DNA from: Escherichia coli
Lineage (GTDB): Bacteria; Pseudomonadota; Gammaproteobacteria; Enterobacterales; Enterobacteriaceae
Assembly: GCF_041886205.1 (NCBI RefSeq)
Contig: NZ_CP169029.1
DNA: 64,000 bases
Strand: one strand, 5' to 3'
In this document: in pieces, positions 6,553-6,675 of the stretch
Position numbering within the stretch: the first letter of the stretch is position 1
How the letters are laid out: each line of letters opens with the position of its first letter
Position numbers and translations under genes: made by a program
Notes under the pieces: model-generated
Database searches by the model: none
What the model was told of the DNA's origin: nothing
Seen by the model: the letters and a program-made list of their open reading frames with translations, nothing else

Positions 6553-6675
6553 TCAAAAACGGTACATCCTATCGAGCATTGGTGCAACGCTAAACCGACC
6601 ACTCCAGTGAACGTCAGTTTTTTCAGGCATTGCGCTGGTTTGGTTGATTTTTTGCATTTCAGAATTACCGTGCAT
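6553..6675 (-). pseudogene. dusA: Orphaned 5' fragment of dusA (first 35 codons, MHGNSEMQKINQTSAMPEKTDVHWSGRFSVAPMLD) ending at the island junction; att-like site
   Basis: Translation of minus strand from 6675 matches the DusA N-terminus, then diverges after codon 35 (position 6571) and hits a stop at 6553. Confidence 0.7.

What the first reader, a model, noticed from the sequence alone, without database searches (positions are those of the whole stretch)
6553..6675. Orphaned dusA 5' end marks the junction of a dusA-integrated element
Seen in sequence: the minus strand from 6675 encodes MHGNSEMQKINQTSAMPEKTDVHWSGRFSVAPMLD, which matches the DusA N-terminus as I recall it (recalled continuation WTDRHCRYF...), then diverges at 6570 and terminates (RMYRF-stop). 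Established knowledge: a family of integrases targets the 5' end of dusA, leaving a displaced 5' fragment at one end of the island. Inference: positions 1 to about 6570 are island DNA and the integrase and functional dusA lie beyond the left edge of the window.
Basis: partly seen in the sequence, partly recalled or inferred. Interest (0 to 1): 0.55.

Follow-up and report, generated by a model that had tools for sequence, protein, structure and literature searches.

The report
Leftover dusA start beside a prophage
This is the displaced first 104 bases of the E. coli dusA gene, left at one end of a prophage whose integrase targets dusA; it is a well-documented and common scar (about 12% of complete E. 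coli genomes), so it is ordinary.

Summary
Bases 6675–6572 are 104/104 identical to K-12 dusA, and the 325 bases upstream differ at 5 positions. Identity stops at 6571.

Window 1–6571 is prophage DNA. The junction is 198/200 identical to that of the ETEC H10407 dusA prophage, which is listed in the paper that defined dusA-specific integrases (Farrugia 2015). In H10407 and PigCaeca_2, about 37–40 kb away at the other end of the prophage, a tyrosine integrase sits divergent from a full-length dusA whose first 96 bases come from the phage. EC2001 and FAM21845 hold both junction sequences 39–48 kb apart. A free phage genome (Lys8385Vzw) carries the matching attP next to the integrase.

The strictly shared core is 8 bp, ATGCTCGA (6579–6572). 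It lies inside a 29-bp imperfect repeat (23/29 identical).

The same junction occurs in 662 of 5,426 complete E. coli genomes, where it is routinely annotated as a dusA pseudogene.

The integrase end lies outside the window. A draft contig identical to window 1–12771 extends 7.7 kb further left, still inside the prophage, but does not reach that end.

Verdict: already known, low interest.

The parts
6572..6675 (-). Orphaned host dusA 5' end: start codon plus 104 nt (codons 1–35), cut off from the rest of the gene
   Evidence: 104/104 identical to K-12 dusA. PGAP annotates the same stretch in relatives as a partial 'tRNA-dihydrouridine synthase' pseudogene.
6553..6571 (-). Phage-derived tail of the 40-codon ORF (…D RMYRF stop), the start of the phage attachment arm
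   Evidence: Diverges from K-12 from 6571 on. Identical to the attP arm of phage Lys8385Vzw and to the H10407 junction.
6572..6579 (-). 8-bp core ATGCTCGA, the only stretch identical in attB, attP and both prophage junctions; the likely strand-exchange region
   Evidence: Three-way and four-way alignments. The restored dusA of a relative has 19 mismatches to K-12 in nt 1–96 and none from 96 to 166. In another species the identity to the window starts exactly at this core.
6565..6593 (-). Imperfect 29-bp attachment repeat TTAGCGTTGCACCAATGCTCGATAGGATG (23/29 identical to the copy at the integrase end of relatives). It covers the codons for SVAPMLD, the same dusA region targeted in Acinetobacter.
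   Evidence: both copies printed. One search gives the A. baumannii att sequences TCAGTAGCCCCTATGATGGATTGGAC from Farrugia 2015 supplement.
6508..6529 (-). Two tandem copies of TGGGA(G/A)CCT(A/G)T, candidate arm-type integrase binding sites, 51 and 62 nt from the core
   Evidence: Repeat family D1 in the phage attP. Two more copies in the same orientation lie at −148/−136 on the integrase side. The motif GGGARCCT occurs only 4 times in the whole 64-kb window. Binding is inferred, not shown.
6676..7000 (-). Native dusA upstream region (promoter region), left attached to the orphan fragment
   Evidence: 320/325 identical to K-12 upstream of dusA. A terminator-like hairpin of the upstream DUF2713 gene lies at 7000–6971. 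Promoter activity is inferred.
1..6571 (.). Right-hand (integrase-distal) end of a temperate prophage: yfdP/yfdQ/yfdR-type early genes, exonuclease, excisionase, and a terminal cargo pair
   Evidence: Matches phages Lys8385Vzw, 1720a-02, PhiR40_1 and PhiR55_1 up to base 6571. An identical draft contig continues left into the repressor, cro, replication and lysis genes.
5049..5348 (+). Excisionase-like gene (PrtN/pyocin-activator family), the window-resident half of the integration/excision module
   Evidence: PHROG 1300 'excisionase', E=6.9e-40. Pfam PF11112 in relatives. In the circular phage it lies on the same strand as int, separated from it by the cargo and attP.
5382..6430 (-). Terminal cargo: a Panacea/SocA antitoxin-like gene (5849–6430) overlapping by 4 bp a 156-codon ORF of unknown family (5382–5852). 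It is transcribed in the same direction as the orphan dusA fragment.
   Evidence: Pfam SocA_Panacea 9e-20. The partner has no hit in Pfam, PHROGs, NCBIfam, PADLOC or PDB. No terminator is predicted between 6553 and 6430; a terminator-like hairpin lies at 5390–5355.

Best explanation
The fragment is the integrase-distal junction of a temperate prophage that integrated into the 5' end of dusA by tyrosine-integrase site-specific recombination.

The phage attP carries its own copy of the first ~104 nt of dusA, about 82% identical to the host's, with its own upstream region. This is followed by the 8-bp core ATGCTCGA. Exchange with the host attB at that core did two things.
(a) It joined the phage-borne 5' end to the body of dusA next to the integrase gene. 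That gives a full-length, slightly chimeric DusA with 9 substitutions in the first 35 residues and the β1-strand motif RFS(V/I)APMLD kept.
(b) It left the original host promoter and first 35 codons stranded at the far end of the prophage, fused to the phage arm. There the frame closes after five codons (RMYRF-stop).

Shown here: the identity of both flanks, the core, the attP in a free phage genome, and the integrase/restored-dusA end in related genomes.

Inferred: that the same left end exists in this genome; that the integrase of relatives catalysed the event; that the GGGARCCT repeats are arm sites; and that the orphan fragment itself has no function beyond being half of the site needed for excision.
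For: - The sequence and translation are as described, with 104/104 identity to K-12 dusA and a break at 6571.
- A three-way alignment of empty site, orphan end and integrase end shows reciprocal exchange at ATGCTCGA.
- Phage Lys8385Vzw has the dusA-5' mimic, the core and the window's arm sequence contiguous, with int starting about 200 bp away.
- PigCaeca_2 and H10407 have the integrase and a full-length dusA at the far end, 37–40 kb away. EC2001 and FAM21845 hold both junction sequences 39–48 kb apart.
- The integrase has the Pfam Phage_integrase catalytic domain at 1.5e-20 and PHROG integrase families.
- The H10407 element is in Table S1 of Farrugia 2015, with its boundary at the base homologous to window 6571. 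Its junction is 198/200 identical to the window.
- A natural replicate exists: in a genome of another enterobacterial species the same arm is fused to a diverged dusA 5' piece, and identity starts at the core.
- Prevalence: the junction occurs in 662/5426 complete E. coli genomes and the int–dusA junction in 740/5426.
- The mechanism is described in PMC4482086.
Against: The integrase end is not in the window, and no integrase or dusA body occurs anywhere in the 64 kb. For this genome the left end is therefore extrapolated from relatives. The identical draft contig could only be followed 7.7 kb further. No experiment here shows excision or DusA activity. The Lys8385Vzw record carries the core twice in tandem, which may be an artefact of how that record was closed.
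Confidence: 0.93

Rival explanations
1. The prophage in this genome is a decayed remnant whose integrase end, or the dusA body, has been deleted. In that case the fragment would mark a true loss of dusA rather than a restored gene.
For: The left end is outside the window. Remnant dusA elements exist in E. coli: 10.9-kb 'phage remnant' entries for O157:H7 EC4115 and PA40 in Farrugia's Table S1. Relatives show IS fragments inside the prophage.
Against: The listed remnants still keep the integrase next to dusA. An identical contig shows at least 14 kb of contiguous, intact-looking prophage genes from the junction. Both complete relatives whose left end was annotated have int plus a full-length dusA, and two more carry the matching int–dusA junction sequence.
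Confidence: 0.05
2. Assembly artefact: a chimeric join between dusA and unrelated phage sequence.
For: None beyond the abrupt break in identity.
Against: The same junction is present base-for-base in hundreds of independently assembled complete genomes and in two independent draft or Logan assemblies. The join lies exactly at the attP core of a free phage.
Confidence: 0.01
3. Not exclusive with the main explanation: the orphan fragment is exapted. Its intact host promoter and translated 40-codon leader would drive transcription into the co-oriented terminal cargo (the Panacea antitoxin-like gene and its partner). The cargo would then be expressed from a host promoter in the lysogen and from the phage's dusA-mimic promoter in the free phage.
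For: The cargo is on the same strand, 122 nt downstream of the orphan stop. No terminator-like hairpin is predicted in between; the first one follows the cargo at 5390–5355. Different cargo alleles at this position in relatives keep the same orientation. Gene callers call the 40-aa ORF in several assemblies.
Against: There is no expression data. A σ70-like site (TTGACC-18-TAAGAT) at 6472–6443 could serve the cargo on its own. Promoter-like hits in this region are no more frequent than in shuffled sequence (5 found against 6.2 expected).
Confidence: 0.15

Closest known systems
dusA-specific prophage of E. coli ETEC H10407 (NC_017633.1 4684277..4723914), listed among the dusA-associated-integrase elements of Farrugia et al. 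2015 (PMC4482086)
   Same: It has the same host locus (zur–DUF2713–dusA'). The orphan junction is 198/200 identical over 200 nt, with the same core and arm. A Panacea-domain gene is the first cargo, and the yfdP/Q/R early genes are the same. The integrase is 365/366 identical to that of the other relatives.
   Different: The early-region mosaic differs (H10407 has a CoiA-like gene and other small ORFs; the window has 170-aa and 338-aa DUF551 genes). The Panacea partner is a different allele (128 aa against 156 aa).
Free temperate phages carrying this attP/int module: Escherichia phage Lys8385Vzw (MT225100), 1720a-02 (KF030445), PhiR40_1, PhiR55_1
   Same: They match the window up to base 6571. 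Lys8385Vzw shows the dusA-5' mimic, core, arm and integrase contiguous, which is the attP predicted from the two prophage junctions.
   Different: Only 52–59% of window 1–6571 is covered (mosaic early genes). The Lys8385Vzw record has the 8-bp core duplicated in tandem.
dusA-specific genomic islands of Acinetobacter baumannii D1279779 and Pseudomonas protegens Pf-5 (experimentally excised; Farrugia 2015)
   Same: They use the same target region of dusA (codons for S-V-A-P-M-M/L-D-W), have imperfect direct repeats, and the element replaces the 5' end while leaving the original 5' end at the far junction.
   Different: The hosts differ and the cargo is unrelated (metal-resistance island, other prophage). 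Integrase similarity to the E. coli enzyme was not measured here.
Vibrio dusA islands related to SGI1 (Durand et al. 2021, PMC8409611)
   Same: They also target dusA (title and abstract only).
   Different: They are mobilizable genomic islands dependent on IncC plasmids, not tailed prophages. They were not compared at sequence level here.
Phages that integrate inside a protein gene and carry a replacement end, such as phage 21 and e14 in icd (recalled from general knowledge, not tested here)
   Same: The principle is the same: attP carries a duplicate of the gene end, so the gene stays intact after integration and a displaced fragment remains at the other junction.
   Different: Those replace the 3' end of icd. 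Here the 5' end, including the promoter and start codon, is replaced.

Membership tests
dusA-specific (DAI-type) integrative elements, Farrugia et al. 2015 | Insertion within the 5' end of dusA at the conserved region encoding …(S)(V/I)APM(M/L)DW… | tested here: met
   The break is after nt 104 of dusA, inside codons SVAPMLD|W. The A. baumannii att sequences cover the homologous codons.
dusA-specific (DAI-type) integrative elements, Farrugia et al. 2015 | Original dusA 5' end displaced to the integrase-distal junction | tested here: met
   Window 6572–6675 is 104/104 identical to K-12 dusA and is fused to a phage arm.
dusA-specific (DAI-type) integrative elements, Farrugia et al. 2015 | Pair of semi-conserved (~21 bp) imperfect direct repeats flanking the element | tested here: inconclusive
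   Only one copy can lie in the window (6565–6593). In relatives with the same junction the second copy is present at the integrase end: 23/29 identical, with an 8-bp perfect core. The second copy in this genome is outside the window.
dusA-specific (DAI-type) integrative elements, Farrugia et al. 2015 | Tyrosine integrase gene adjacent to, and divergent from, the restored dusA | not testable with these tools
   It is absent from the 64-kb window and expected about 31–33 kb to the left. It is present in PigCaeca_2 and H10407, and next to attP in phage Lys8385Vzw.
dusA-specific (DAI-type) integrative elements, Farrugia et al. 2015 | Element supplies a replacement 5' end that keeps dusA full length, with the β1 strand retained | tested here: met
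   This was tested in relatives only: a 345-aa DusA with N-terminus MHDNHETQKINQTSVMPEKTGVYWNSRFSIAPMLD|WTDRH…. The phage attP carrying this mimic is contiguous with the window's arm.
dusA-specific (DAI-type) integrative elements, Farrugia et al. 2015 | Near-identity to a published member | tested here: met
   The junction is 198/200 identical to ETEC H10407, an element listed in Table S1 of the paper, with the boundary at the homologous base.
dusA-specific (DAI-type) integrative elements, Farrugia et al. 2015 | Excision as a circular intermediate that restores wild-type dusA | not testable with these tools
   This needs PCR or induction. The only indirect support is that sequenced free phages carry the predicted attP.

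The most novel reading that the evidence does not exclude
Integration performs a promoter swap that matters. The phage-borne dusA-mimic promoter takes over dusA, while the stranded native dusA promoter and its 40-codon leader become the lysogen-specific driver of the prophage's terminal cargo. That cargo is a Panacea antitoxin-like gene paired with a 156-aa protein that matches no family in Pfam, PHROGs, NCBIfam, PADLOC or PDB, and it may be a new toxin or defence effector.
Probability: 0.12. Interest if true: 0.35.

Novelty: already known. Interest (0 to 1): 0.08.

Why it matters
It matters mainly for annotation. The fragment fixes the right boundary of a prophage to the base (6571/6572). It also explains a recurrent 'partial tRNA-dihydrouridine synthase' pseudogene, and it shows that dusA is probably not inactivated in this strain. 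Nothing here changes what is known about dusA-targeting integrases. The only open items are side issues: the uncharacterised partner of the Panacea antitoxin at the prophage end, and whether the stranded host promoter feeds that cargo.

Tried and rejected
- Walking left from the window by exact-protein look-ups. The 338-aa and 170-aa early proteins led to a Logan contig (identical to window 118–14342) and to draft contig GCA_012373595.2 AASIYH020000020.1 (identical to window 1–12771, extending 7.7 kb further left). The next step, using the holin at the far end, failed: that protein is on record in 27,956 blocks of the collection and the wanted contig was not among the places shown. I stopped there, so the integrase end of this exact genome was not reached.
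- No complete E. coli genome covers more than 79% of window 1–7100, so the source strain is not in that collection.
- Rfam over the whole window found nothing at or near the junction.
- NCBIfam, PADLOC, PHROGs, Pfam and PDB sequence searches gave nothing for the 156-aa ORF.
- A possible shared promoter element between the host dusA upstream region and the phage int–dusA spacer (TATGgTATAGTACcCC, 14/16) was tested against shuffles. It is only weakly supported, with 33 of 2000 shuffles scoring as high, and I do not rely on it.
- Misassembly and a plain truncation of dusA by deletion or an IS element were considered and rejected, because the sequence beyond the break is the attP arm of a known phage.

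Full report
**Observation.** On the minus strand, an ORF runs from the ATG at 6675 to the TGA at 6555–6553.
- Its first 104 nt (6675–6572) are 104/104 identical to dusA of E. coli K-12 MG1655, and the 325 nt upstream differ from K-12 at 5 positions.
- The first mismatch is at 6571, the silent third base of codon D35. The first changed codon is 6570–6568.
- Beyond that point similarity to dusA is lost.
- blastn and tblastn with K-12 dusA/DusA and with a dusA-type integrase find nothing else in the 64-kb window.

**What lies on each side.**
- To the right (6676 onwards) is the normal E. coli neighbourhood of dusA: the DUF2713 gene yjbL/M, zur, yjbJ, dinF, lexA, dgkA, plsB and so on.
- To the left (1–6571) is temperate-phage DNA. 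It holds yfdP/yfdQ/yfdR-type early genes, Ead/Ea22-like and DUF551 genes, a 3'-5' exonuclease, and a PrtN-family gene that PHROGs classes as excisionase (E=6.9e-40). It ends with a terminal cargo pair on the minus strand.
- Phages Lys8385Vzw, 1720a-02, PhiR40_1 and PhiR55_1 match the window up to base 6571 and no further.

**The other end, seen in relatives.** A 1.1-kb query across the junction is fully covered in 41 complete E. coli genomes.
- In strain PigCaeca_2 the prophage spans about 37.4 kb. At its far end a 365-aa tyrosine recombinase lies divergent from a full-length 345-aa dusA. The near end carries the 105-nt piece that PGAP labels a partial 'tRNA-dihydrouridine synthase' pseudogene.
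- The integrase has the Pfam Phage_integrase catalytic domain (1.5e-20) and hits PHROG integrase families.
- EC2001 and FAM21845 also hold both junctions, 48 and 39 kb apart.
- ETEC H10407 has the same layout. Its junction is 198/200 identical to the window over 200 nt, and its integrase is 365/366 identical to that of PigCaeca_2.

**The recombination site.** I aligned the empty K-12 site, the window's junction and the integrase-end junction.
- The window follows K-12 up to …CCAATGCTCGA and then follows the phage (TAGGATGTACCG…).
- The integrase end follows the phage up to …CCTATGCTCGA and then follows K-12 (CTGGACGGACAG…).
- The restored dusA has 19 mismatches to K-12 within nt 1–96 and none from 96 to 166.
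- Exchange therefore took place in or next to the 8-bp core ATGCTCGA (window 6579–6572).
- Around the core the two junction copies form an imperfect 29-bp repeat, 23/29 identical. The phage's dusA mimic as a whole is 85/104 identical to the host 5' end.
- The circular genome of phage Lys8385Vzw carries the predicted attP: dusA mimic, core, then the window's arm sequence, with int beginning about 200 bp away. That record shows the core twice in tandem; I cannot tell whether this is real or an artefact of closing the record.
- A natural replicate exists. Locus L008 comes from a genome whose chromosomal flanks are only 77–82% identical to E. coli. It has the same phage arm fused to a diverged dusA 5' piece (…RFSIAPMLD), and identity to the window begins exactly at ATGCTCGA.
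- The motif GGGARCCT occurs as two tandem copies 51 and 62 nt from the core in the window's arm (6508–6529). Two more copies in the same orientation lie at −148/−136 on the integrase side. The motif occurs only four times in the whole 64-kb window. These are candidate arm-type integrase sites; this is an inference.

**Mechanism.** This is the arrangement described by Farrugia et al. 2015 (PMC4482086). A family of integrases targets one conserved site in the 5' end of dusA. The element replaces the 5' end with its own sequence, the original 5' end is displaced, semi-conserved repeats of about 21 bp flank the element, and excision rebuilds wild-type dusA.
- The A. baumannii att sequences in their supplement cover the homologous codons (SVAPMMDW).
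- Their Table S1 lists the H10407 prophage (4684277..4723914) as a dusA-specific 'phage lysogen'. Its start coordinate coincides with the last base of the PGAP pseudogene, which corresponds to window 6571.
- In the relatives the chimeric DusA differs from the native one at 9 of the first 35 residues and keeps the RFS(V/I)APMLD strand.

**How common it is.** A 231-nt query centred on the junction is at least 80% covered in 662 of 5,426 complete E. coli genomes, O157:H7 included. The int–dusA junction is found in 740 of 5,426. The structure is common and is handled routinely by annotation pipelines.

**Limits.**
- The integrase end of this genome is not in the window.
- No complete E. coli genome covers more than 79% of window 1–7100. 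The early region is a mosaic not represented there.
- A Logan contig (SRR9913974) is 100% identical to window 118–14342. Draft contig AASIYH020000020.1 of GCA_012373595.2 is 100% identical to window 1–12771.
- That draft contig extends 7.7 kb to the left. There it shows an S24 repressor, cro, replication genes, RusA, KilA-N, DUF968, an antiterminator and holins. The window's left edge is therefore well inside a prophage.
- Further walking failed because the next anchor protein is too widespread.
- A decayed left end cannot be excluded. It is unlikely, because both annotated relatives, and even the 'remnant' elements listed by Farrugia, keep the integrase next to dusA.

**Side observations.**
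- The cargo next to the junction is a Panacea/SocA antitoxin-like gene (Pfam 9e-20). It overlaps by 4 bp a 156-codon ORF with no match in Pfam, PHROGs, NCBIfam, PADLOC or PDB sequences. By analogy with PanAT systems (PMC8832971) the pair may be a toxin–antitoxin or defence module.
- The cargo is co-oriented with the orphan dusA fragment, and no terminator-like hairpin is predicted between them. Read-through from the stranded host promoter is therefore possible, but it is untested.
- Rfam finds nothing near the junction.

**Verdict.** The feature is a known, frequent by-product of dusA-specific prophage integration, so it is already known and of low interest.

Noticed in passing
window 5382–6430 (minus strand): A Panacea/SocA antitoxin-like gene (5849–6430; Pfam PF13274, 9e-20) overlaps by 4 bp a 156-codon ORF (5382–5852) that has no match in Pfam, PHROGs, NCBIfam, PADLOC or PDB sequences. 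It is a candidate PanAT toxin–antitoxin or defence pair at the prophage end. Relatives carry different alleles at the same position.
   Followed up: partly
window 5049–5348 (+): A gene that PGAP calls 'pyocin activator PrtN family' in relatives scores as PHROG 1300 excisionase (6.9e-40). In the circular phage it is on the same strand as int but is separated from it by the cargo and attP, so integration puts xis and int at opposite prophage ends.
   Followed up: partly
window 6508–6529; L002 about 16195–16220: GGGARCCT motifs occur as two tandem copies on each side of the attP core, all in one orientation. There are only 4 copies in the whole 64-kb window. They are candidate arm-type integrase binding sites.
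   Followed up: partly
window 6755–6770 (minus) vs L002 about 16246–16261: The host dusA upstream region (TATGGTATAGTACCCC) and the phage int–dusA spacer (TATGTTATAGTACGCC, which overlaps the first codons of int) share 14/16 bases about 90–105 nt upstream of the start codon. Both read TGnTATAGT, like an extended −10. Support is weak: 33 of 2000 shuffles score as high.
   Followed up: partly
L004 (phage Lys8385Vzw MT225100), about 10100–10125: The deposited circular phage genome has the 8-bp core twice in tandem (ATGCTCGAATGCTCGA). It may be an artefact of joining prophage ends, or it may be real.
   Followed up: no
L008 13030–13270 (GCA_049319885.1): The same phage end (99.9% identical to window 3143–6579) is integrated in the dusA of a genome whose chromosomal flanks are only 77–82% identical to E. 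coli. This phage module therefore crosses species boundaries. The species was not identified.
   Followed up: partly
window 7038–8024 (minus): The DUF2713 gene is a single 328-codon ORF here. In K-12 it is split into yjbL (84 aa) and yjbM (235 aa), and in PigCaeca_2 it is annotated as frameshifted. Some genomes with the same prophage end lack it altogether (L005, L007, L012).
   Followed up: no
window 1–7100: No complete E. coli genome among 5,426 covers more than 79% of this stretch. The combination of early genes (170-aa ORF at 2259–2771 plus the 338-aa DUF551 gene at 3451–4467) is a rare mosaic. It was found 100% identical only in draft GCA_012373595.2 and in Logan SRR9913974.
   Followed up: partly
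L014–L020 (for example L019 14295–14417): Gene callers in several public assemblies call the 40-codon orphan dusA ORF as a protein-coding gene, so this peptide is present in protein databases as a spurious 'hypothetical protein'.
   Followed up: no
window 23089–23159, 32546–32695, 34697–34893, 52877–52954, 57828–62837: Ordinary Rfam features of this chromosomal region are present: two naRNA4 repeats, STnc430, a lysine riboswitch, and a complete rRNA operon with a spacer tRNA and StyR-44.
   Followed up: no
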